Virus record (IMG/VR): IMGVR_UViG_3300010413_000016
Coordinates: 1 to 64,000 of that record
Origin: a virus
DNA: 64,000 nucleotides
Reading direction: 5' to 3' (one strand)
Shown here: positions 33,979 to 44,150 of the stretch, one piece after another
How the letters are laid out: every line of letters begins with the position of its first letter
Position numbering within the stretch: the first letter of the stretch is position 1
The notes under the pieces: generated by a model
Told to the model about the DNA's origin: nothing
The model's database searches: none
The model's input: the letters and a program-made list of their open reading frames with translations, nothing else
Program-made: the position numbers and the translations under genes

Positions 33979-34081
33979 GATCACAATGGAACAAATTATA
34001 AGCTATAATTGTTGACTCCTATTACCCTCTTATGATATAATTATACTATGTAAAATTTAACTTTTGAATAGGACAACCGTT

Positions 34082-34609
34082 ATGAATAAAGCTAAAACAT
34101 TAACTTGGAATGATCGAATCGCGTTGATTGAACATTATAAACCTGATGACAATACTATTTGTCAAGTGTTTGGTGTAACGCCAAATGAGTTGGTTGCTGC
34201 ACGCCACATGGAAGGAAACGGTACGCTTGTGCCAACGCCCAATATCGATTATGCTTCATACAAGCATCTATTTGTAACCGCCACGTCATCCACAAAAGAT
34301 GTTCCAAAAGAATCTTCTGCCACTTCAGTGAAAGTAGAACCTGGAGGCAAACCAGAAACTGCAACGAAGAAGTCAAAAACTCCTCAGAAGCGTGGAAGAA
34401 AAGGTGATAAAATCACAAAAGCGTTTGAAGCTATTCCCGAAATCCCAGTTGATGCAGAAACGTTTGCAGAGACTCATTCTGTTTCTTTAGCTGTATTGCG
34501 TCAAAGCAAACGATTTGACAAGACCAATATCAATGGTAGTGTTAAAGTTAAAAAAGACAAAGAGTCGGGCAAGTTGATGATCTGGCGCGAAGCATTGAAC
34601 GAAGAATGA
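34082..34609 (+). CDS. Hypothetical basic protein
   Basis: KRGRKG; TTGACT-18-TATAAT at 34012-34041. Confidence 0.65.
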   Translation: MNKAKTLTWNDRIALIEHYKPDDNTICQVFGVTPNELVAARHMEGNGTLVPTPNIDYASYKHLFVTATSSTKDVPKESSATSVKVEPGGKPETATKKSKTPQKRGRKGDKITKAFEAIPEIPVDAETFAETHSVSLAVLRQSKRFDKTNINGSVKVKKDKESGKLMIWREALNEE

Positions 34610-34616
34610 GGTCATA

Positions 34617-35531
34617 ATGGAACGAACCGAAAAAAAATATACCTATAGCGAAATCTTTCATTCATTTCAAGGTGAAGGAACATATACTGGCCGCAACACT
34701 GCATGGATTAGATTCTTTCTGTGCAACCTCCAGTGTTCAGGATTCGGACAGAAAGATCCAACAGATCCGTCTACCTATATCTTGCCCTATAAAGATTTGG
34801 ATGTTAGTAAGTACACTAATATTGAAGACCTTCCTGTCTTTGAGTATGGCTGCGATTCGAGCTATACTTGGGCCAAGAAATATAAACACCTAGCAAAAAA
34901 AGCGTCGGCGTTTGAAATATGTGATAGGATTCAGGCCGTTTTAGCCCACGAGACTAATCCGGGCGGATTATTTTTGCATCCTATATCAAGACAGCATACT
35001 AATTTAGCATTTACTGGCGGCGAGCCGATGTTAAATCAAGAAGCGATGGAATCGATTATCATCGAATTTGCTGAACGTCACAACTCTCCTCTCTACGTCA
35101 CGGTAGAAACAAATGGAACTATTGATATTGCAAATCCTGAATTGCAGACAATCATTGAAGAGTGGTATGCTGATGAAGGAGCAGAGTGGTTTTGGTCCGT
35201 AAGTCCTAAGCTATTCTCGACGAGCGGCGAACTGGCTAAAAAAGCTATTCGTCCCGAAGTCGTCAGCATGTATGCCAATATGAGTAATCACGGACACTTG
35301 AAGTATGTTGTAAACGGAACAAATCAAAGTTGGGATGAAGTTGAACAAGCAACTGAAGCATTTCGTAAAGAAGGTGTCGGTTGGGACGTCTACATTATGC
35401 CAGTTGGAGCAACGAAAGAGCAGCAAGAAGATGAACAAATTGCTGAAATTGCAATGGAAGCTATGAAACGTGGATATCATGTATCTGGACGATTGCATTG
35501 CTACATTTTCGGAAATAAAATCGGCACGTAA
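34617..35531 (+). CDS. queE: 7-carboxy-7-deazaguanine synthase (radical SAM)
   Basis: SEIFHSFQGEG, RF..CNLQC...CDS, TGGEP, ETNGT, SVSPKL, RLH. Confidence 0.9.
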   Translation: MERTEKKYTYSEIFHSFQGEGTYTGRNTAWIRFFLCNLQCSGFGQKDPTDPSTYILPYKDLDVSKYTNIEDLPVFEYGCDSSYTWAKKYKHLAKKASAFEICDRIQAVLAHETNPGGLFLHPISRQHTNLAFTGGEPMLNQEAMESIIIEFAERHNSPLYVTVETNGTIDIANPELQTIIEEWYADEGAEWFWSVSPKLFSTSGELAKKAIRPEVVSMYANMSNHGHLKYVVNGTNQSWDEVEQATEAFRKEGVGWDVYIMPVGATKEQQEDEQIAEIAMEAMKRGYHVSGRLHCYIFGNKIGT

Positions 35532-35537
35532 TTTGTC

Positions 35538-35566
35538 TTGACATACTACCCTTAATCCAATACAAT
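35538..35566 (+). promoter_or_regulatory. sigma70-type promoter of the channel/PspA cassette
   Basis: TTGACA-17 bp-TACAAT. Confidence 0.7.
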
Positions 35567-35601
35567 ACCCTCTCTGGAAAAAATCCTTTGAGGGTATTTT
35601 T

Positions 35602-36615
35602 ATGTTACGTAAAATTATTACTGTACTGTTGTTTGTAGTTGCAACAAACGTTTTTGCATCGCCGTTGTATACTATCGGTGTCAAAGAAGCTAAACCCTTT
35701 TCATATAAAGAGAATGGCCAATGGAAAGGAATCAGCATTAATTTGATCAGACTGCTATCCGAGGACATGGGCTTCAGATATAAATTCGTGGAAGACAAAA
35801 CAGTCGATCAGTTAATTGGTGATACGGAAAACCATGCAACTGACTTTTCTATAGCTGCGGTATCGACGACAGCTGCCCGCGAAAAGGTTGTTGATTTTTC
35901 GCATCCTTATTTCTCCACATCAATGGGAATTCTGTCTTATGGGAAACCACCTTGGTATGAAACTGTCTGGTGGATCGCAAAACGGCTACTAATAACGTTG
36001 GTGATCTTTATCGTCGGACTGTACATTGTTGGAGCCTTGGCTGACAAAATTGATGGCGATGAGAATATACGCAATCCGCACGAAGGTGCTTGGTGGGCAT
36101 TGGTAACCTTTACTACGACAGGTTATGGTGACTACGTTCCAAAGACGGGCAAAGGAAAAATATTCGCATCTATTTGGATGGTCGCTAGTCTGATATTGTT
36201 GTCAACATTTACAGGTTATTTGGCGTCAGCGATGACGATTAAACAAATGTCCACAGCGCCTATCACTCTTGGTAACCTTTATTCGTCTTCCGTTGTTACG
36301 GTTAAAGGTACCACTAGTCAACGATTGTTAGATAATCTTGGTATTAAGTATCATTCTGTGCAAACAGCAGATGAAGCTGTCGATTTGGTAATGAAACGAC
36401 GGGTGAGAGCGTTTGCATATGATAGTGCGTTGCTCCAATATTATGCGAACACCAACGGTAATTTGTCGATGGTAACCGTTGATGCGAATAATGAAAATTA
36501 TGCTATCGTTTTTCCTCAAGGGTCACAGTTGACAGAACAGTTTAATGTCGGTATACTTAGGGTCATGACGTCACCGAAGTGGAAAGATGTACGTCACGAA
36601 TATTTTGTTCAATAA
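35602..36615 (+). CDS. GluR0-type ligand-gated potassium channel
   Basis: Signal peptide; family 3 solute-binding S1 (REKVVDFSHPYF); TM1; WWALVTFTTTGYGD filter; TM2; S2. Confidence 0.88.
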   Translation: MLRKIITVLLFVVATNVFASPLYTIGVKEAKPFSYKENGQWKGISINLIRLLSEDMGFRYKFVEDKTVDQLIGDTENHATDFSIAAVSTTAAREKVVDFSHPYFSTSMGILSYGKPPWYETVWWIAKRLLITLVIFIVGLYIVGALADKIDGDENIRNPHEGAWWALVTFTTTGYGDYVPKTGKGKIFASIWMVASLILLSTFTGYLASAMTIKQMSTAPITLGNLYSSSVVTVKGTTSQRLLDNLGIKYHSVQTADEAVDLVMKRRVRAFAYDSALLQYYANTNGNLSMVTVDANNENYAIVFPQGSQLTEQFNVGILRVMTSPKWKDVRHEYFVQ

Positions 36616-36634
36616 CCAAACAAGGAGATGACAA

Positions 36635-38320
36635 GTGTCATTTAAATCAAGTATTAAGAAAATCGCCTTATTGGCCACTATCGTTGCAATCGCAGCACCC
36701 ATGGCATATGCGCCTGTTGCAGATGCAAAGAGTTTTGGTGGAGGCCGTAGCTTTTCTTCTTCCTCGTTCAGCCGTAGCTCTTCCTATTCATCTCGATCGA
36801 GTGGAAGCTTCTGGGGGAGCAGCAAGAAGTCTTCGTCCTACTCGTCTGCAAAAACGTATACTTCCAGCAAGCCGGTCCAGAAGAAATCTACTTCCGTTAA
36901 GCCAGTTTCATCTGCCAAGAGTTCGAAGTTTGGAGCGTCCAAACCGAAGTCCTTCCAACACGTTGGAACGGGCTACCAAACTGCGTCAGCGAAGTACTCT
37001 CTGAAAGCTCAACGAGCTAAGTTCAAGAAGCCAGCGTACACTTCAACTGCGGGGTCGAAAGTTAATCGTAGCTTTGCCTACAAGAAGACTTACAGCTCCA
37101 ATCCTGTTTACGCATCGGCGAGACACAGCAACCGTAGTACCTATTTCGATCGCCGTCATCGTTACTACAGCAGCTATCATGTGCCGACCTACGTATACAA
37201 TGTGTCGCCGTCCTATGGTTTGTGGGATACTATCTTCCTGTACAGCATGTTAAATAATATGTCGAACGCATCAACTTTTGCATATAACCATCAGCATGAT
37301 GCAGACTATATGGCATGGAGACGTGAAGCTGAGCGTCAAGCTCAAACCAACGCCGACCTTCGAGCTGAACTTGCCTCTTTGGATTCGAAGATATCCAAGA
37401 TGAGTGGACCTGTAAATCCTAACTACCTGCCTAAAGGTGTTGATGCTGACATCGCTCTGTCTCAGGAAGCTCTCGCTTCCCAGAAGCCCACTTTGCGAGT
37501 GTGTGTTGGAAGTAAATCTGGAGCATACTACCGCGTCACAAGTCTGCTTCAACAAGGCCAAAATTCAGTGAACGTTGATATTATCACCACTGAAGGTTCA
37601 CTGGATACGATTGATGCTATTGCCGACGGCAAGTGCGATGGTGGATTTGTTCAAAGCAACAGTTACTGGAACTACGTTGAGACTAAGCAGAGTGCCAACC
37701 TTCCATTCACACGTATGTTCTCACCCTTCAAAGAGACTGTACACCTCGTATGCAATGCTCGAAGTGGCATCAAAAATGTAGATGATCTGGACTCCGATAA
37801 CCATGTGTACTTCCCACAGAAATCTGGAGCCGCATCAACCTGGGCAGATTTCGTTGCTGATGATAGTGACTACCGTGATGTGCAAACTTCTCTGACCAAT
37901 CCTGCTCTTAAGGTTGGATCTACCGAAGAAGCATTCCTAAAGGCTGGTCAGGATAAGAATGGTTGTGCAATGTATGTTGTAGCTGCAGGAGCAACTTCTA
38001 TCATGCGTAATACTGACAACGGTGCCAAAGCTAGCAATCTTGTGTTGGTTAATGTGAAGGAAGATGGTGTCACTGACACGACTGATCCGTCTGGTGCCCA
38101 TGTGTATTCAACTACGGAACTGAACAAGAAAACGTATCCTAACCTTCTTCGCAAAGCTGGTTGGTTCGGTCTGTTCTCTGGTAATGTCAACACTCTGAAA
38201 GTCAACGCTGATTTTATTATCAGCGATGCTTGGAAGGACAAGAACAAAGATGCATATCCTGAAATGGCAAATGTGTTTGTAGGAATGACTCCTACCATTC
38301 ACAAGACTGTTCACCAGTAA
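36635..38320 (+). CDS. Secreted Ser/Lys-rich protein with C-terminal TAXI-type solute-binding domain
   Basis: Signal peptide; SFGGGRSFSSS low complexity; GSKSGAYY, TEGSLD, GFVQS, ETVHLV. Confidence 0.7.
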   Translation: MSFKSSIKKIALLATIVAIAAPMAYAPVADAKSFGGGRSFSSSSFSRSSSYSSRSSGSFWGSSKKSSSYSSAKTYTSSKPVQKKSTSVKPVSSAKSSKFGASKPKSFQHVGTGYQTASAKYSLKAQRAKFKKPAYTSTAGSKVNRSFAYKKTYSSNPVYASARHSNRSTYFDRRHRYYSSYHVPTYVYNVSPSYGLWDTIFLYSMLNNMSNASTFAYNHQHDADYMAWRREAERQAQTNADLRAELASLDSKISKMSGPVNPNYLPKGVDADIALSQEALASQKPTLRVCVGSKSGAYYRVTSLLQQGQNSVNVDIITTEGSLDTIDAIADGKCDGGFVQSNSYWNYVETKQSANLPFTRMFSPFKETVHLVCNARSGIKNVDDLDSDNHVYFPQKSGAASTWADFVADDSDYRDVQTSLTNPALKVGSTEEAFLKAGQDKNGCAMYVVAAGATSIMRNTDNGAKASNLVLVNVKEDGVTDTTDPSGAHVYSTTELNKKTYPNLLRKAGWFGLFSGNVNTLKVNADFIISDAWKDKNKDAYPEMANVFVGMTPTIHKTVHQ

Positions 38321-38334
38321 GAGAGGCCAGTCCA

Positions 38335-39000
38335 ATGTGGAATTACATCAAACGTAAAATTGGACTGGGTGGTGCGGACAAGGATGTCCCAGCCTCCGAA
38401 CAGTTCTATTCGCCTCTACGAATCGCTCTGCATAGTACAATCGGACTGGATACTGTCGATTGGATCGTTGTACAGCAGGATCTGAGCCCCAATTTCAGCG
38501 TTCCTGTCGGAAAGATGGAAGTTCTTGCAATTGGACAAACGGAACAAGGCATATACCGTTTCTACTTGCAAGATGAAAAAAGTACCGAATTCGTATTGCA
38601 AGTGTTGTGCGATAAAGATCATCGAACTGGCGATGAGAAAGTGAGCGAAATTATGTTGTTCAAGCAGGTTTCATCTCACTATCCATCTTCGGATGAAGCA
38701 TGGTCAGAGTACATCAAAGACTTCGGTCTTAAGACATTCATTCTTGATGACATCACTTATGACCGAGTATGGGGTGATGAAATGTCCGAAGTTGCTGAAC
38801 CGATTAAATTTGATGAGCATATCATTGCTCCTCAAGAAGAGTACGATTATGAAGATAGTTACATGTTGTATGTCAGAGAGATCGGTGGACAGGACATCTC
38901 GGAATTCGCTCTCATCGGAATCGAAGAAAGCAGTGACTCAGCAGAAGTGGTAACACACATTGGGCTGACCGTTTATCCTTCAAACGTGACAGTTCAGTAG
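38335..39000 (+). CDS. YjfK/DUF2491-like protein
   Basis: YRFYLQD..FVLQV...YDRVWG...MLYVR...LIGIEE; next to PspA as in yjfJK. Confidence 0.65.
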   Translation: MWNYIKRKIGLGGADKDVPASEQFYSPLRIALHSTIGLDTVDWIVVQQDLSPNFSVPVGKMEVLAIGQTEQGIYRFYLQDEKSTEFVLQVLCDKDHRTGDEKVSEIMLFKQVSSHYPSSDEAWSEYIKDFGLKTFILDDITYDRVWGDEMSEVAEPIKFDEHIIAPQEEYDYEDSYMLYVREIGGQDISEFALIGIEESSDSAEVVTHIGLTVYPSNVTVQ

Positions 39001-39052
39001 CCCCAAACAACTTTTTAATGTATAGTGTTATTTTCAACTTAGGAGATTAAAC

Positions 39053-39808
39053 ATGATTGGTCGTTTCTTTAAGCACTACGGCAAACAAAAAATCACTGAT
39101 GGTATTAACGCGCTGAATGACGCCATCGTTTCTTTTGACCCTGTTGGTGCATCCGAGGCAGCCATTGCCGAAATGGAAGAGAACTTCGACAGTATCAACC
39201 GCGAATACTCGAAAGCGAAACAGGACTGGGCACGCGAACAGAAAGAGGCTGACGAAATCGTTGCTCTGTACGACAAGCGCCTGGCCGCTGCTGAACACAT
39301 CCAGAACCAACTCGCTACCGATCCTGACAATGGCCAGCTATCTGATGCCCTCGATCAGTTGGTATCGGCACTGGAAGGAATGCAGGATGATGTCGAGCGC
39401 GAGAAAGAAGAAGCAGCTGATGCGAAGGAAGTGATGACGGAACTCGAAGCTACTGTCAAGATGTATGCTGACAAGCTCAAGACTGCACGCACAGACATGA
39501 AGAAGGCTGCAAACGCAATGGAAAAAGCCAAGCGTCAGGAAGAGCGTGCCAATGCTCAAGCTGATCGTGCTGCTCAACTTGCGGGGATTAAATCTCAAGC
39601 GTCTGGAATCAGTTCTGCCCTTGAGAGCATGAATCGCCAAGCTACCGAGGCTCAGGCACGTGCTGATGCTGCTAAGCGGAAAGCTGAACTTCTCGGTCCT
39701 TCCACAGTCGACGACAACGACGCAGTGGCAGCCGCAATGGCTGCTGTATCTGGAACCGCCGGCCCAGCCGCTTCTGTAACAGATCGTCTGGCGGCCCTTA
39801 AGAAATAA
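39053..39808 (+). CDS. pspA: PspA/IM30 (ESCRT-III-like) family protein
   Basis: DP motif, long coiled coils, C-terminal DRLAALKK. Confidence 0.75.
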   Translation: MIGRFFKHYGKQKITDGINALNDAIVSFDPVGASEAAIAEMEENFDSINREYSKAKQDWAREQKEADEIVALYDKRLAAAEHIQNQLATDPDNGQLSDALDQLVSALEGMQDDVEREKEEAADAKEVMTELEATVKMYADKLKTARTDMKKAANAMEKAKRQEERANAQADRAAQLAGIKSQASGISSALESMNRQATEAQARADAAKRKAELLGPSTVDDNDAVAAAMAAVSGTAGPAASVTDRLAALKK

Positions 39809-39826
39809 GGATCCGTCGCTTCGTCT

Positions 39827-39855
39827 AAAAGGGACCTAATCTAGGTCCCTTTTTT
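39827..39855 (+). terminator. Rho-independent terminator
   Basis: aaaagggaccta-atc-taggtcccttttt. Confidence 0.85.
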
Positions 39856-39920
39856 ATTATATTTTTGTTGTGCCGTTGCACACTTTTTGATATAATAAGT
39901 AGAACTAGAGGAAGTAAGTT

Positions 39921-40352
39921 ATGACAACCAAAAAAATATACAGAGCTGGAACAATTCCTTACATTATCAATCCTGAAACATCTCAGATTGAGATGCTGTT
40001 TATGTATCCCAGCGATCCAAAATATGGAGGACCGTATTATCAATGCTGCAAAGGTCGAGTCGAAGAAGGTGAAACGAATCTTGAGGCCGCTCTCAGAGAA
40101 GCAACTGAAGAACTAGGACTGTTTACTGGGAACATTGATGGCGATCCACACAATCTTGGAAATTTTCTCGGACGTACAATGATGTACGTTGTTAAAGTCG
40201 AAGACAAGGATATGTTTGGCGATCCACATTTCGAAACGAGAGATACTAAGTGGATGACGCCAGAAGAATTCGAAGAAACTGGACGAAGTCTTCACAAGCC
40301 AATAGTGAAAGCAGCAGTTCGCTATATAAAAGAAAAAGAAAACATAAAATAA
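39921..40352 (+). CDS. Nudix hydrolase
   Basis: GRVEEGETNLEAALREATEELG Nudix box. Confidence 0.9.
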   Translation: MTTKKIYRAGTIPYIINPETSQIEMLFMYPSDPKYGGPYYQCCKGRVEEGETNLEAALREATEELGLFTGNIDGDPHNLGNFLGRTMMYVVKVEDKDMFGDPHFETRDTKWMTPEEFEETGRSLHKPIVKAAVRYIKEKENIK

Positions 40353-40371
40353 TTAACATAGAGGTCAAAGA

Positions 40372-40989
40372 ATGAGTTGGGAAATTAGCAAAGAGTTTGG
40401 ATTCGACTATGGTCACCGTGTATGGTCACAAAAGTTGAACAAAGAATATAGCATCGATGATGAAACGGTGTGCAGACACATTCATGGTCACCGAGGACAA
40501 GTACACATTCACTTATCTGCAGAGTGTTTGACAAACGGAATGTGTACTGATTTCAAACATCTCAACTGGGCAAAAAAGTTTCTAGATGATTACATTGATC
40601 ATAAGTTTATCCTCGATACTAATGATCCATGGTTTATCAACATTATCAACGCAACCCCTGTTTTTGAAGATGGTAAGTTTGTACGAGTAAAAACTACGTA
40701 TCCATTGAACACTTCCGAAATCAATGAGCTTAACGTTAAAGAGGTGTTCGTACCAGGAACTGAACATTTTGCGGGATATATTCTGGAGGTTGATCACCTA
40801 CAAGGACCAGAAAAAGAGTTTTTTGAAGGATTCTTCTTGGTTAAATTCTTACCAACGTCTGAAAATCTGTCTCAGTGGCTGTTTGAATGCGTAGATGCAA
40901 AAATGTCACTGATTGATGTCACAACTTCCAAGATTGAGTGGTGGGAAACACCAAAAAGTTGCTCTGTTTTCACTCGACCTGATAAATAA
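40372..40989 (+). CDS. queD: 6-carboxy-5,6,7,8-tetrahydropterin synthase
   Basis: FDYGHR, CRHIHGH, DF, DHKFI, PTSENL, WETP. Confidence 0.88.
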   Translation: MSWEISKEFGFDYGHRVWSQKLNKEYSIDDETVCRHIHGHRGQVHIHLSAECLTNGMCTDFKHLNWAKKFLDDYIDHKFILDTNDPWFINIINATPVFEDGKFVRVKTTYPLNTSEINELNVKEVFVPGTEHFAGYILEVDHLQGPEKEFFEGFFLVKFLPTSENLSQWLFECVDAKMSLIDVTTSKIEWWETPKSCSVFTRPDK

Positions 40990-41018
40990 GTGTATAAACA
41001 CCAATTTAGGGGTCAAAG

Positions 41019-41213
41019 ATGTTGTTATCGCAGCTATTTGAAGCGGTTATGAGTAAAAAGAAGAAAAAGAAGCAGGACGAACTGCCACAAGTACGCAACT
41101 TCGTTGCAAAAAACGCACAACGAGCTGGCGCTGGAGCACATGCTGACAAGAAAGGAAAGCATGCAAATCGCCAACGTCAAAAGAAACAGTGGAAGAAGGA
41201 GGAAGGATTGTGA
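41019..41213 (+). CDS. Small basic late protein, possible internal head protein
   Basis: Late promoter; MLLSQLFE leader. Confidence 0.55.
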   Translation: MLLSQLFEAVMSKKKKKKQDELPQVRNFVAKNAQRAGAGAHADKKGKHANRQRQKKQWKKEEGL

Positions 41214-41753: not shown

Positions 41754-41782
41754 AAAAGGGGGACTAAATTGTCCCCTTTTTT
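41754..41782 (+). terminator. Rho-independent terminator
   Basis: ggggac-taaatt-gtcccc plus T tract. Confidence 0.75.
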
Positions 41783-41837
41783 ATTGTTGGATTCCACTAA
41801 CGCCTCTTGTATAATATTAATATCTAGGAGGCAAATT

Positions 41838-44150
41838 TTGAAACTTCACACCAAAACAAATACCATCGAACGGGGTGGCGTGTATGCTGAAAACGCATTC
41901 ACAATTAAGACAACAGCAAAAGCGTTTGATATTCTTTCAAGTGGGTTATATACCGATCCAATCGCAGCTATAGTTAGAGAGCTGAGCTGCAATGCATCTG
42001 ATGCGCATGTGGCCGCTGGAAAACCAACCGAACCTTTCATCATTCACCTTCCAAATGAACTCGAACCATATTTCTCAGTAATTGATAATGGTACTGGCTT
42101 ATCTGATGAAAATATTCGTGGTGAATTGGTTCCTACTACAACGGTAGAAGGTGACAGAATCGTTCCTATGTTGGACGAGGAGGGTAACCAATTGTACCAC
42201 CGCGCTGGTGGTTTATATACTACGTACTTTGAGTCTACAAAAACAGATTCAAACGATTTCGTCGGCGCACTTGGACTTGGTTCTAAGAGTCCATTCAGTT
42301 ATGCTCGAGCGTTTGATGTCATTTCACGCTACAACGGAACAAAGCTGGTATATTCTGTTTTTCTTAACGAGAGCAACATTCCTTCTGTTGCCTTATTGGG
42401 GAAAAAATCAACTGACGAACCAAACGGTCTTGAAGTCAGAATTGCCATCAGATCGGAAGACTTTAGTGCATTCGCTGAAAAAGTATCACACGAACTTCGA
42501 TTTTTCGACATCAAACCTAACATCATCGGATCATGTAATTTTGAGTTTGTAGATACTCCAGAACCGATTGTATCAGGAGAAGGGTGGTCACTATTTCGTT
42601 CTAGTAGATGGGGCAGTAACCACGTGACAGCAATTCAAGGTAATGTTGCATACCATGTCAACACTGATCAATTGTACAGCCACCTCAGTGATTCAGCTCG
42701 CGCACTTATCGGAGACGTGGACATTGCTTTGTTCTTTGACATTGGTCAGTTAGAATTTGCTGCTAACCGTGAAGAAATTCGATATGACGAAGACACACTA
42801 AGCAACATTATAGATAGACTCGAACAAATGTGTTCAGATTTAACAAAATATGCGAATGATATAATCAGTCCATATTCTGACAGTCGGTGGAACGCAGCAA
42901 TTGCTTTCGAATCTCTCTCCAAGGAATGGTTTTTGGGAGATCATAATCTTCGAATATTTCTGTCTCACAAAACCAAAGAACTTGAAGATGATTCTGTTCT
43001 AAAAGATCTTGTTGTCAAGGGAAACTATGTACAAATTAACAATGATATCAGAGGACACGAGATCGTTGAATATACATACAGAGCACGAGGCAGAATTACC
43101 AGAGAAGGAAGGGTTGAAAATACGAGTGTGAATCCACGCAGCGATACGGTTGTGTTTTACAATGATATTAAAACACGTGGTATCACTCAAATTAAAGAAT
43201 ATCTTCGCAATTCACAGGAAATCAATACAGCGTTGGTCATTACTCCTCTAAAAATTCCTCGAGCAGTCAATACATTCAACGAGGCATATGAAACGCCATT
43301 TACAGATTATGACGAAGAGTACGAATATATCATCGATAGTTTGGGTCATCCTGAAGTTAAAATAGCAAGCATTGACACAGAGACTGTTAAACGAAAAATC
43401 GGAAATGGAACGAAAGCACCCATCTATATTCCAAATGGATATCACTCAGTTAGACGCGGTATGTGGGATACGACATACACAGCAGATTGGAAAACGGCGG
43501 AACTTGGTTCGGTGTATGATAGTACAGATGAATTTTTGTGGTTCCTGCTCGAACATCGTTCAAACATAATTGATGATGAAGGTGGTACGGTATATTGGGA
43601 ATCTCGTAGCATTAGTGATAATATAGCCAATATGGTTAACATCATAAATGAGCACTTTGGTACAAATTACGAAATGGATAATGTGTATGGTGTCTCAGTA
43701 ACAGCTCAAAGAAAAATATCCAAAAAATCCAATTGGACGAATTTATTCGAATTATATTTGTCAGCACTAGAGTCATACTCTCCAACATTGGAGTATATGC
43801 AAATCAAAAATGTAACAACAGATAATGATAATTTTGGAATACTGGCCATGCTGGAAGATTCACAAGCCCGATCCAAAATTTTAGGTCTTGATCGATCGTC
43901 GCCTTTTCGCCAAGCGGTTGAGCCAGCGATAACTAGTATAGTGGAACATGAAGGCAATGTCTCAGCAGCAAGAAAAGTTCTGAGTATCTGGAATTCCCAA
44001 CGTATCTTTGACACACACGTTCCAAACGATGTTGCTCCTTTCTTTGAAAAGGGGCAATTTAACAAATATGAAATGTTGCCGGTAGTCGGAAATTATACTC
44101 GCAACATCGACAAAATTATAAACTATATCAATCTTATAGATAGGAGCTAA
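41838..44150 (+). CDS. rIIA: RIIA-like protein (GHKL ATPase N-terminus)
   Basis: AFDILSSGLY, RELSCNASDAH, DNGTGL, GALGLGSKSPF; TTG start after AGGAGG. Confidence 0.9.
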   Translation: MKLHTKTNTIERGGVYAENAFTIKTTAKAFDILSSGLYTDPIAAIVRELSCNASDAHVAAGKPTEPFIIHLPNELEPYFSVIDNGTGLSDENIRGELVPTTTVEGDRIVPMLDEEGNQLYHRAGGLYTTYFESTKTDSNDFVGALGLGSKSPFSYARAFDVISRYNGTKLVYSVFLNESNIPSVALLGKKSTDEPNGLEVRIAIRSEDFSAFAEKVSHELRFFDIKPNIIGSCNFEFVDTPEPIVSGEGWSLFRSSRWGSNHVTAIQGNVAYHVNTDQLYSHLSDSARALIGDVDIALFFDIGQLEFAANREEIRYDEDTLSNIIDRLEQMCSDLTKYANDIISPYSDSRWNAAIAFESLSKEWFLGDHNLRIFLSHKTKELEDDSVLKDLVVKGNYVQINNDIRGHEIVEYTYRARGRITREGRVENTSVNPRSDTVVFYNDIKTRGITQIKEYLRNSQEINTALVITPLKIPRAVNTFNEAYETPFTDYDEEYEYIIDSLGHPEVKIASIDTETVKRKIGNGTKAPIYIPNGYHSVRRGMWDTTYTADWKTAELGSVYDSTDEFLWFLLEHRSNIIDDEGGTVYWESRSISDNIANMVNIINEHFGTNYEMDNVYGVSVTAQRKISKKSNWTNLFELYLSALESYSPTLEYMQIKNVTTDNDNFGILAMLEDSQARSKILGLDRSSPFRQAVEPAITSIVEHEGNVSAARKVLSIWNSQRIFDTHVPNDVAPFFEKGQFNKYEMLPVVGNYTRNIDKIINYINLIDRS

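What the first reader, a model, noticed from the sequence alone, without database searches (positions are those of the whole stretch)
35538..39855. Phage-borne membrane module: GluR0-type K+ channel, TAXI chimera, YjfK-like protein and PspA
Seen: four genes bounded by a promoter (35538) and terminator (39827), inserted between queE and the Nudix-queD pair; the last three look more GC3-rich than their neighbours. The channel keeps the TTGYGD filter and a split ligand-binding domain. Established: PspA/IM30 proteins are bacterial ESCRT-III-like membrane remodellers, and yjfJ (PspA-like) sits beside yjfK in bacteria. Inference: the phage senses periplasmic ligands and maintains membrane potential or integrity, for example against pore-forming abortive infection or for lysis timing. 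A ligand-gated channel in a phage is unusual.
Basis: partly seen in the sequence, partly recalled or inferred. Interest (0 to 1): 0.7.

Follow-up and report, generated by a model that had tools for sequence, protein, structure and literature searches.

The report
Phage potassium-channel and PspA-like membrane cassette
A large uncultured phage carries a self-contained four-gene unit: an amino-acid-gated potassium channel, a secreted sensor-like protein, a YjfK-like protein and a distant relative of the membrane-repair protein PspA. It probably keeps the infected cell's inner membrane and ion balance working, but nothing has been tested at the bench.

Summary
Four + strand genes (35602-39808) lie between a strong sigma70-type promoter (35538) and a 12-bp-stem terminator (39827), with QueE upstream and Nudix-QueD downstream.

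- **Gene 1** is a GluR0-type channel: split SBP_bac_3 domain, two membrane helices, invariant TTGYGD.
- **Gene 2** is an exported protein with a very basic (+29) S/K/Y-rich arm and a weakly TAXI-like binding domain.
- **Gene 3** is DUF2491 (YjfK family).
- **Gene 4** gets no Pfam or PDB sequence match to PspA. It is a remote PspA/IM30 homologue by profile-profile comparison (prob 84-94%; controls 2.8% or less) and by fold.

The same four genes, in the same order, occur in a complete 363-kb phage, a 229-kb phage (only 23-41% identity) and five phage-like metagenome contigs. Genes 2-4 without the channel form an operon in Candidatus Thiosymbion and other bacteria. None of 29 sampled bacterial GluR0-type channel loci had genes 2-4 nearby.

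The closest known systems are yjfJ-type PspA operons (PspA, DUF2491, a different K+ channel) and the phage-borne PspA modules reported in a 2026 preprint. This scan had already found the cassette on other DNA (e1-5378902, e1-5376681). Function is inferred: membrane and ion homeostasis during infection.

The parts
35538..35566 (+). sigma70-type promoter of the cassette (TTGACA-17-TACAAT)
   Evidence: (11 of 12 matches, joint best in 34500-41200). Relatives also have a sigma70-like promoter just upstream of their channel gene, often after a terminator.
35566..35596 (+). 5' UTR hairpin whose 3' arm holds the Shine-Dalgarno GAGGG, followed by a U run and the ATG
   Evidence: -14.2 kcal/mol, z -3.5, 0 of 200 shuffles fold as well. 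It is not conserved upstream of the channel genes of relatives, so it is probably specific to this phage.
35602..36615 (+). GluR0-type ligand-gated K+ channel (337 aa): signal peptide, S1 lobe, M1 (129-147), pore loop with TTTGYGD (171-177), M2 (187-205), S2 lobe, no further membrane helix
   Evidence: Pfam SBP_bac_3 1.5e-21 (residues 24-336), Ion_trans_2 2.7e-13, Lig_chan-Glu_bd 3.8e-11, Lig_chan 9.5e-10. PDB sequence matches to the Nostoc GluR0 ligand-binding core 2PYY and to full-length GluA2 and GluK2 over residues 12-326. Hydropathy. Invariant T172-D177, R93, E94, T238 and D274 in 14 relatives.
36529..36557 (+). second promoter-like site (TTGACA-17-TATACT) inside the 3' end of the channel gene, about 80 bp before gene 2
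   Evidence: 11 of 12. It could transcribe genes 2-4 without the channel. This is a consensus match only.
36635..38320 (+). exported protein (561 aa): signal peptide (about 1-31), basic S/K/Y-rich low-complexity arm (32-190; 30 K+R against 1 D+E), conserved helical block with coiled coil (about 150-260), TAXI-like binding domain with 4 invariant Cys (281-561)
   Evidence: TIGR02122 7.2e-10 and NMT1_3 3.3e-5, both below their cut-offs. phrog_6856 5.9e-25. PDB profile match 1US4 at E 9e-4. Foldseek top five are TAXI proteins, E 1e-9 to 5e-8, on a model of mean pLDDT 46.
38335..39000 (+). DUF2491 (YjfK-family) protein, 221 aa, no signal peptide or membrane helix
   Evidence: PF10679 1.2e-24, 87 bits against a cut-off of 25. 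BLASTP against E. coli YjfK E 8e-6. Atlas neighbours are DUF2491 and DUF4178. Hydropathy.
39053..39808 (+). PspA/IM30-like protein (251 aa), member of a distinct family of about 250 aa with no Pfam model
   Evidence: No PF04012 match even at E 10. Family of 643 representatives. hhalign of the family against PspA/YjfJ: prob 84-94%, 219 columns end to end; reversed and shuffled controls at most 2.8%. AF2 model pLDDT 76 with N-terminal helix, long hairpin and C-terminal helices. Foldseek top 12 are all Vipp1 or PspA.
39827..39853 (+). intrinsic terminator-like hairpin closing the cassette
   Evidence: (12 pairs, 5 G-C, T-rich tail).

Best explanation
This is a conserved accessory cassette of large (jumbo-class) phages. 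It is transcribed as its own unit from a host-type sigma70 promoter. It joins an amino-acid-gated K+ channel of the GluR0 type to a three-gene bacterial module: an exported, polycationic, TAXI-like binding protein; a cytoplasmic DUF2491 protein; and a divergent PspA/IM30-like protein.

Shown here: the domain identities, the transcription-unit boundaries, the conservation of gene content and order across phages that share only 23-41% protein identity, and the existence of genes 2-4 as a channel-less operon in bacteria.

Inferred: the channel sits in the host inner membrane with both ligand-binding lobes in the periplasm. It opens on binding an alpha-amino acid (the Arg/Thr/Asp ligand triad is invariant) and lets K+ move down its gradient, which sets K+ content, turgor and membrane potential. 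The PspA-like protein, with DUF2491 as its partner (as YjfK is beside YjfJ), assembles on the cytoplasmic face of the membrane and limits ion leakage. The exported protein acts as a periplasmic sensor or membrane-surface binder. A soil variant fuses its N-terminal part, through one membrane helix, to DUF2491, which argues that the two proteins work across the membrane.

Net effect: the infected cell keeps an energised, intact inner membrane and a controlled K+ balance during a long infection.
For: - **Identities:** (channel; gene 2; DUF2491; PspA-like).
- **Own promoter and terminator:**. Relatives have their own promoters.
- **Same four genes, same order:** in a CheckV-complete 363-kb phage in a different genomic context; in a 229.5-kb viral contig at 28/35/23/41% identity; and in metagenome contigs L008, L009, L015, L035 and L036, where L008, L009 and L035 showed HNH endonuclease, L009 also sigma-factor and virion-protein matches, and L036 an NAD-dependent DNA ligase.
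- **Genes 2-4 without the channel:** in Ca. Thiosymbion genomes and about 15 related metagenome loci.
- **Soil variant:** one ORF fuses the gene-2 N-part, a membrane helix and DUF2491.
[quoted passage not shown] E. coli yjfJ-yjfK adjacency confirmed.
- **Phage PspA:** phage-borne pspA genes with membrane and transport neighbours, some of them transcribed in nature, are reported in huge phages (bioRxiv 10.64898/2026.10.24.761521).
- **GluR0 physiology:** Synechocystis GluR0 gives K+ uptake and affects cell volume under KCl stress (PMC13099474).
- **Bacterial sample:** 1 of 29 sampled bacterial GluR0-type loci has a bona fide PspA next door.
Against: - There are no expression, conductance, ligand or membrane data for any of the four proteins.
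- The PspA link rests on profile-profile comparison and fold ranking only. Pfam, NCBIfam and PDB sequence searches fail. VIA-align cannot separate Vipp1 (Z 11) from other long helical hairpins (Z 11-12.7).
- The gene-2 model is poor (pLDDT 46) and its TAXI scores are below the family cut-offs.
- Neither mature gene 2 nor gene 3 has a membrane helix in the phage version, so how periplasm and cytoplasm would be coupled is unknown.
- The direction of K+ flux, and therefore whether the channel protects or depolarises, cannot be read from sequence.
Confidence: 0.5

Rival explanations
1. Superinfection exclusion or host takeover by controlled depolarisation. The phage opens a K+ pathway to lower the membrane potential, so that DNA entry by competing phages fails. 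The PspA-like module limits the collateral damage.
For: There is an intact K+ filter and an early-type sigma70 promoter. From general knowledge, chlorovirus Kcv channels depolarise the host at entry, and many phages need membrane potential for DNA injection. The channel evolves faster than the PspA-like gene (49% against 72-73% identity between this phage and the 363-kb phage), as conflict-related genes often do.
Against: A ligand-gated channel makes the effect depend on an outside amino acid, which is an odd design for constant exclusion. Depolarisation would also cost the phage its own energy supply over a long jumbo-phage cycle. PADLOC gave no match for genes 1-3 and only coiled-coil noise for gene 4.
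Confidence: 0.15
2. Counter-defence. The cassette neutralises abortive-infection systems that kill by opening or collapsing the inner membrane. The PspA-like protein would seal the membrane and the channel would rebalance ions, working alongside the rII proteins.
For: rIIA (41769-44150, phrog_612 3.5e-115) and a likely rIIB lie 2 kb downstream in this phage. From general knowledge, rII counters Rex-type membrane depolarisation and PspA limits proton leakage.
Against: In the 363-kb relative the cassette (about 108 kb) and rIIA (about 193 kb) are far apart, so the adjacency is not conserved. Genes 2-4 also exist in bacteria with no phage context. No known anti-defence family matched.
Confidence: 0.15
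3. Ion supply. The channel imports K+ (with glutamate as cue or counter-ion) to meet the cation demand of replicating and packaging a genome of more than 300 kb. Genes 2-4 adapt the envelope to the resulting turgor change.
For: Synechocystis GluR0 complements a K+-uptake-deficient E. coli and acts in volume regulation (PMC13099474). The cassette has so far been found only on large phage genomes (363 kb, 229 kb; contigs of 172 kb; this fragment is estimated at 23% of its genome). yjfJ-type operons are linked to polyamines, which are also DNA counter-ions.
Against: Hosts already have Trk and Kdp uptake systems. A channel can only move K+ down its electrochemical gradient. Nothing in the cassette is an energised transporter.
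Confidence: 0.12
4. Selfish cargo. The cassette is a mobile bacterial operon that spreads among phages with a neighbouring homing endonuclease and gives the phage little or nothing.
For: An HNH endonuclease gene lies directly upstream of the channel in L005, L008, L009 and L035. The cassette sits in different contexts in different phages. GC3 of genes 2-4 is 1.3-2 sd above the window mean.
Against: All four genes stay intact and in order across phages that share only 23-41% identity. The PspA-like protein is far better conserved (72-73%) than rIIA (39%) between two of the phages. The filter and ligand residues are invariant. No HNH gene lies beside it in this window.
Confidence: 0.05

Closest known systems
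yjfJ-type PspA operons of Proteobacteria (E. coli yjfIJKLMC; 'third group' of PspA contexts in Ravi et al. 2024, PMC11237479)
   Same: A PspA-family protein sits next to a DUF2491 protein, and the operon also carries a K+ channel and a cell-surface or secreted protein. The paper's reading is that these operons link extracellular sensing to membrane dynamics.
   Different: The PspA-like protein here belongs to a separate family that PF04012 does not detect. The gene order is DUF2491 then PspA-like. There is no CesT/Tir (DUF2170), DUF350, DUF1190 or ATP-grasp gene. The channel is gated by an extracellular ligand (GluR0 type), not by an intracellular one. The cassette is on a phage.
GluR0 of Synechocystis PCC 6803 (slr1257) and the Nostoc punctiforme homologue (PDB 1II5, 2PYY)
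   Same: S1-M1-P-M2-S2 order, TxGYGD filter, no third membrane helix, signal peptide, and conserved Arg/Thr/Asp amino-acid-binding residues.
   Different: Only about 30% identity to the nearest cellular relatives. The protein is shorter (337 aa). It is encoded by a phage and fixed in an operon with a PspA-like module. Its ligand and conductance are unknown.
Phage-encoded PspA modules of huge phages (Yuan and Chen, bioRxiv 10.64898/2026.10.24.761521)
   Same: PspA-type genes on large phage genomes, flanked by membrane and transport genes. [quoted passage not shown]
   Different: That paper does not call the neighbour a K+ channel and does not mention DUF2491. Whether its PspA set includes this divergent family is unknown; its supplements were not requested.
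TAXI-type TRAP substrate-binding proteins (T. thermophilus 1US4 and 8U79, V. cholerae VcGluP 9IBO)
   Same: The C-terminal 280 aa of gene 2 matches them best, both by profile and by fold. The solved relatives bind glutamate.
   Different: The scores are below the family cut-off. There is no TRAP membrane partner nearby. The protein carries an N-terminal extension of about 250 aa that includes a polycationic arm. Its ligand is unknown.

Membership tests
GluR0-type prokaryotic ionotropic glutamate-receptor homologue | Ligand-binding domain split by the pore module (S1-M1-P-M2-S2) | tested here: met
   SBP_bac_3 spans residues 24-336 and Ion_trans_2 spans 137-212 inside it. One alignment to full-length GluA2 and GluK2 covers residues 12-326.
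GluR0-type prokaryotic ionotropic glutamate-receptor homologue | K+ selectivity filter TxGYGD | tested here: met
   TTTGYGD at residues 171-177. T172-D177 are invariant in 14 relatives.
GluR0-type prokaryotic ionotropic glutamate-receptor homologue | Two membrane helices only, with no helix after S2, and an N-terminal signal peptide | tested here: met
   Hydropathy peaks at residues 5-23, 129-147 and 187-205 only. This is a simple scale, not a trained predictor.
GluR0-type prokaryotic ionotropic glutamate-receptor homologue | Residues that bind the alpha-carboxyl and alpha-amino groups (Arg and Thr in S1, Ser/Thr and Asp/Glu in S2) | tested here: met
   R93, E94, T238 and D274 are invariant in the clade. 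They align with the matching motifs of 2PYY. The assignment of their roles comes from general knowledge of iGluR structures.
GluR0-type prokaryotic ionotropic glutamate-receptor homologue | Ligand-gated K+ conductance | not testable with these tools
   Needs electrophysiology, flux assays or K+-uptake complementation.
PspA/IM30 (PF04012; bacterial ESCRT-III superfamily) | Match to the family model above its curated cut-off | tested here: not met
   PF04012 gives no match at E up to 10. There is none in the six-frame search of the 363-kb phage or the Thiosymbion genome, while 9 of the 14 control genomes matched. PDB sequence and profile searches find no PspA or Vipp1.
PspA/IM30 (PF04012; bacterial ESCRT-III superfamily) | Detectable homology over the whole length | tested here: met
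   hhalign of a 254-sequence family alignment against 8 PspA/YjfJ sequences: prob 84% (local) and 94% (global), E 7e-6 and 2e-8, 219 columns from end to end. Reversed and block-shuffled controls reach prob at most 2.8% and scores of 13-22 (local mode) against 44.9. A thinner profile against YjfJ alone failed (prob 2%).
PspA/IM30 (PF04012; bacterial ESCRT-III superfamily) | N-terminal helix, long alpha1/alpha2-3 hairpin, then alpha4 and alpha5 | tested here: inconclusive
   The model has helices at 5-28, 30-89, 94-183, 189-214 and 218-232. The Foldseek top 12 are all Vipp1 or PspA, aligned over 212-243 columns, but E is only 2e-3 to 2e-2. VIA-align gives Z 11 for Vipp1, tied with YscO, colicin and other hairpins.
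PspA/IM30 (PF04012; bacterial ESCRT-III superfamily) | Oligomeric rings or rods that bind and remodel membranes | not testable with these tools
   Needs purified protein, electron microscopy and lipid-binding assays.
DUF2491 (YjfK family, PF10679) | Match to the family model above its cut-off | tested here: met
   87.2 bits against a cut-off of 25, covering profile positions 11-209 of 210. The homologue in the 363-kb phage scores 69 bits.
DUF2491 (YjfK family, PF10679) | Lies beside a PspA-family gene | tested here: met
   It is adjacent to the PspA-like gene in every locus long enough to judge, as yjfK is to yjfJ in E. coli.
TAXI family of TRAP substrate-binding proteins (TIGR02122) | Match to the family model above its cut-off | tested here: not met
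   38.2 bits against a cut-off of 84.35, and only residues 281-400. Pfam NMT1_3 scores 24.1 against a cut-off of 27.
TAXI family of TRAP substrate-binding proteins (TIGR02122) | TAXI-like fold of the binding domain | tested here: inconclusive
   The top five Foldseek matches are TAXI proteins (E 1e-9 to 5e-8, the next family at 3e-6). The model has mean pLDDT 46, with roughly 58-82 in most of residues 321-450.
TAXI family of TRAP substrate-binding proteins (TIGR02122) | Works with a neighbouring TRAP membrane component | tested here: not met
   No such gene lies in the cassette or its flanks in the window or in the related loci.

The most novel reading that the evidence does not exclude
The combination was put together in phages, not simply copied whole from a host. 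In my samples the bacterial three-gene module never has the channel, and 0 of 29 bacterial GluR0-type channel loci had gene-2-like or gene-4-like genes within 1.5 kb, whereas every phage copy has all four genes. If so, it would be a virus-built signalling device. Amino acids in the periplasm, for example glutamate released by neighbouring cells that are lysing, would gate a K+ channel and a TAXI-like sensor. These would then set the membrane state and the timing of lysis of the infected cell, as a chemical counterpart of lysis inhibition.
Probability: 0.1. Interest if true: 0.85.

Novelty: new variant of a known kind. Interest (0 to 1): 0.55.

Why it matters
Ligand-gated ion channels are known from cells and small K+ channels from algal viruses, but a complete amino-acid-gated K+ channel fixed in a phage operon would show that bacteriophages manage host electrophysiology in response to outside chemistry.

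The cassette also ties a large uncharacterised family (643 representative clusters) to the PspA/ESCRT-III superfamily.

It repeats, with unrelated parts, the PspA-DUF2491-K+ channel link seen in bacterial yjfJ operons. That is independent support that these three functions belong together.

It offers a compact four-gene system in which to test what DUF2491 and the yjf-type PspA modules do, which is still unknown in E. coli.

Tried and rejected
1. **Direct sequence searches for PspA.** Pfam at E up to 10, NCBIfam, and phmmer or hmmsearch against PDB gave only coiled-coil noise (SMC, Rad50, apolipophorin). An 18-sequence profile against YjfJ alone gave prob 2%. Only the 254-sequence profile against an 8-sequence PspA profile worked.
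2. **VIA-align second look.** It could not tell Vipp1 from other long hairpins.
3. **Cultured phages.** There was no nucleotide match, no gene-4 match, and only partial (at most 33%) channel matches.
Synteny came from the search for related loci, the DNA search and the genome search instead.
5. **Searches that could not run.** The pattern search with the wide alignment A1 failed for lack of a conserved stretch. Relatives cannot be drawn for a virus record.
6. **Testing 'insertion'.** The 363-kb relative has no QueE or QueD. 80 QueE-bearing viral contigs have no cassette, Nudix or QueD nearby. Not informative.
7. **Gene-2 N-terminal arm against E. coli YjfM (DUF1190).** Only compositional similarity (E 0.12), so rejected as homology.
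8. **The 181-aa ORF at 34064-34609 against the 181-aa HNH gene upstream of relatives' cassettes.** Unrelated.
9. **PADLOC defence models.** Nothing for genes 1-3, coiled-coil noise for gene 4.
10. **The 5' UTR hairpin as a conserved regulator.** Not conserved in relatives.
11. **A wider channel alignment (A5) against viral contigs.** It found only the 363-kb phage again. The filter-motif scan was what found the 229-kb phage.

Full report
**Setting.** The window is the first 64 kb of a 74.8-kb IMG/VR virus contig that CheckV rates 23% complete, so it is probably a fragment of a genome well over 200 kb. Phage identity is clear. rIIA lies at 41769-44150 (phrog_612, 3.5e-115), QueE and QueD genes for 7-deazaguanine synthesis are present, and so is a Nudix gene. 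No cultured phage matches the region at nucleotide level.

**The observation.** Four + strand ORFs fill 35602-39808 with gaps of 14-52 bp.
- The site at 35538 (TTGACA-17-TACAAT, 11/12) is the joint best promoter-like site in 34500-41200.
- The hairpin at 39827-39853 (12-bp stem, T run) is the best terminator-like site.
- A second 11/12 promoter-like site at 36529, inside the 3' end of gene 1, could drive genes 2-4 alone.
- GC3 of genes 2-4 (0.45, 0.44, 0.48) is 1.3-2 sd above the window mean (0.356, sd 0.065). Gene 1 is at 0.39.

All the stated facts hold.

**Gene 1, the channel.**
- Pfam finds SBP_bac_3 across residues 24-336. Ion_trans_2, Lig_chan and Lig_chan-Glu_bd lie inside or beside it.
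- phmmer against PDB aligns residues 12-326 in one piece to full-length AMPA and kainate receptors. The best match is the Nostoc GluR0 ligand-binding core, 2PYY.
- Hydropathy shows a signal peptide and two membrane helices (129-147, 187-205) and nothing after S2.
- TTTGYGD and the residues expected to hold an alpha-amino acid (R93, E94, T238, D274) are invariant in 14 relatives.

This meets every sequence-level criterion for a GluR0-type channel. Conductance and ligand are untested.

**Gene 2.** The N-terminus is a signal peptide ending ADA|K. Residues 32-190 have 30 K+R against 1 D+E, with 54 S+T and 15 Y. A conserved helical block and coiled coil follow, then a 280-aa domain with four invariant cysteines. 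That domain gives sub-threshold matches to TAXI and NMT1 models. It matches phrog_6856 strongly. Its best PDB profile match is the glutamate-binding TAXI protein 1US4 (E 9e-4). TAXI proteins are the top five Foldseek matches of a weak model. So 'TAXI-like' is fair, but membership is not shown.

**Gene 3.** It is a clear DUF2491 (YjfK family) protein with no export signal.

**Gene 4.** No sequence search links it to PspA.
- It belongs to a well-conserved family of about 250 aa: 237 matches in the word-index search and 643 representative clusters by HMMER. Named members come from Ca. Thiosymbion, Methylovulum, Methylobacter and Desulfovibrio inopinatus.
- The family is rare in sampled genomes. 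Among 400 genomes of the class, only the Thiosymbion genome that served as the search centre had it.
- The AF2 model (pLDDT 76) has an N-terminal helix, a long hairpin and C-terminal helices. The twelve best Foldseek matches are all Vipp1 or PspA over nearly full length, at modest E-values.
- A 254-sequence profile aligned end to end with a profile of 8 PspA/YjfJ sequences at prob 84-94%. Reversed and block-shuffled PspA profiles reached at most 2.8%, so coiled-coil composition does not explain the match.

I read gene 4 as a remote PspA/IM30 homologue that forms a family of its own.

**Relatives.**
- *Phage copies.* The four genes occur in the same order in IMGVR_UViG_3300021514_000002 (363.5 kb, CheckV 100%). 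There they lie between HNH endonuclease, sigma-factor and Dam genes on one side and MazG on the other. That phage has no QueE or QueD, and its rIIA (39% identity) is 85 kb away. A scan of IMG/VR for the coded filter motif found one more full cassette, on a 229.5-kb viral contig. It shares only 28, 35, 23 and 41% identity for the four genes, and its flanks match phage families. Five metagenome contigs also carry all four genes. HNH endonuclease matched upstream of the channel in L008, L009 and L035; L009 also has sigma-factor and virion-protein matches, and L036 has an NAD-dependent DNA ligase. Each relative has its own sigma70-like promoter ahead of the channel.
- *Bacterial copies.* Ca. Thiosymbion genomes and about 15 related metagenome loci carry genes 2-4 only, beside ordinary cellular genes. 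A soil group fuses the N-part of gene 2, through one clear membrane helix, to DUF2491, followed by a gene-4 homologue. This fusion places the N-part outside the cell and DUF2491 inside, and it argues that the two proteins cooperate.
- *Tree.* On a tree of gene-4 homologues the Thiosymbion copies form one clade (100/100). All the other channel-bearing loci in the tree (the 229.5-kb phage L159 was found later and is not in it) fall in another clade (92/96). The window's copy sits unresolved at the base.
- *Bacterial channels.* GluR0-type channels occur in 28 of 401 sampled Pseudomonadota genomes. None of the 29 loci has a gene-2-like or gene-4-like gene within 1.5 kb, and one has a bona fide PspA beside it.

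**What is known.**
- Ravi et al. 2024 (PMC11237479) describe yjfJ-type PspA operons. [quoted passage not shown]
- E. coli yjfJ-yjfK adjacency was checked directly.
- Yuan and Chen (bioRxiv 10.64898/2026.10.24.761521) report 189 pspA genes in 184 huge phages and 667 IMG/VR genomes. [quoted passage not shown] They name neither a K+ channel nor DUF2491.
- Synechocystis GluR0 supports K+ uptake and volume control (PMC13099474).
- No paper in the library describes a GluR0-type channel in a phage.
- Earlier agents of this scan reported the same cassette in the 363-kb phage, and a PspA plus GluR0 cassette in a 461-kb phage. I reached the first independently and did not test the second.

**Mechanism.** The step from parts to function is inference. 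The most economical reading is a membrane and ion homeostasis module that host RNA polymerase expresses. It would comprise a periplasm-facing, amino-acid-gated K+ pathway, a PspA-like membrane stabiliser with its DUF2491 partner, and an exported sensor or surface binder. Depolarisation for exclusion, counter-defence, K+ supply and selfish cargo remain open. They are ranked under Rival explanations.

**Verdict.** The finding is real and its annotation is largely right. It is not unique to this genome, and its general theme (phage PspA modules; the PspA-DUF2491-K+ channel link) is already in the literature. Three points are new variants of that theme:
- the channel class, which is gated by an extracellular ligand (GluR0 type);
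- the divergent PspA-like family, which Pfam does not detect;
- the apparent restriction of the four-gene combination to large phages.

Noticed in passing
window 35566-35596: A stable hairpin (-14.2 kcal/mol, z -3.5) sits between the -10 box and the start codon of the channel gene. It buries the Shine-Dalgarno GAGGG and is followed by a U run, so it looks like an attenuator or a translational lock. It is absent upstream of the channel genes of seven relatives.
   Followed up: partly
window 36529-36557: A second near-consensus sigma70 promoter (TTGACA-17-TATACT) lies inside the 3' end of the channel gene. It could express the three downstream genes without the channel, which mirrors the channel-less bacterial operon.
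   Followed up: no
L005:4740-5273, L008:2137-2679, L009:3011-3556, L035:1088-1708: An HNH homing-type endonuclease gene (phrog_59) lies directly upstream of the channel gene in four related cassettes but not in this window. It may explain why the cassette sits in different genomic contexts.
   Followed up: partly
L046:2158-3810 (soil metagenome contig WNFX01013289.1): One 550-aa ORF fuses a signal peptide, an S/G/R-rich region and the conserved helical block of gene 2, through a single membrane helix (289-307), to a C-terminal DUF2491 domain. A 171-aa ORF with no Pfam match then separates it from the PspA-like gene.
   Followed up: partly
L159:5095-8939 (IMGVR_UViG_3300023313_000001, 229.5 kb): A third large phage carries the whole four-gene cassette at only 23-41% identity. 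Its channel is closer to the ordinary bacterial GluR0 group than to the window's clade.
   Followed up: partly
L260 (G559:C91:63234-67274): In one of 29 sampled bacterial GluR0-type channel loci, a bona fide PspA-family ORF (E 5e-18 against my PspA profile) lies next to the channel on the opposite strand.
   Followed up: no
window 36728-37204 (residues 32-190 of gene 2): A 159-residue exported segment has net charge about +29, is very rich in S, K and Y, and contains no cysteine. This is an unusual composition for a periplasmic protein. It is reminiscent, in composition only, of the S/G/R-rich tail of E. coli YjfM.
   Followed up: partly
L002:3533-5047: In Ca. Thiosymbion an NfeD-like gene and a 343-aa ORF with no Pfam match lie about 1.6 kb upstream of the channel-less three-gene module, with a TANGO2-like gene in between. 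NfeD usually accompanies SPFH/stomatin membrane-scaffold genes.
   Followed up: no
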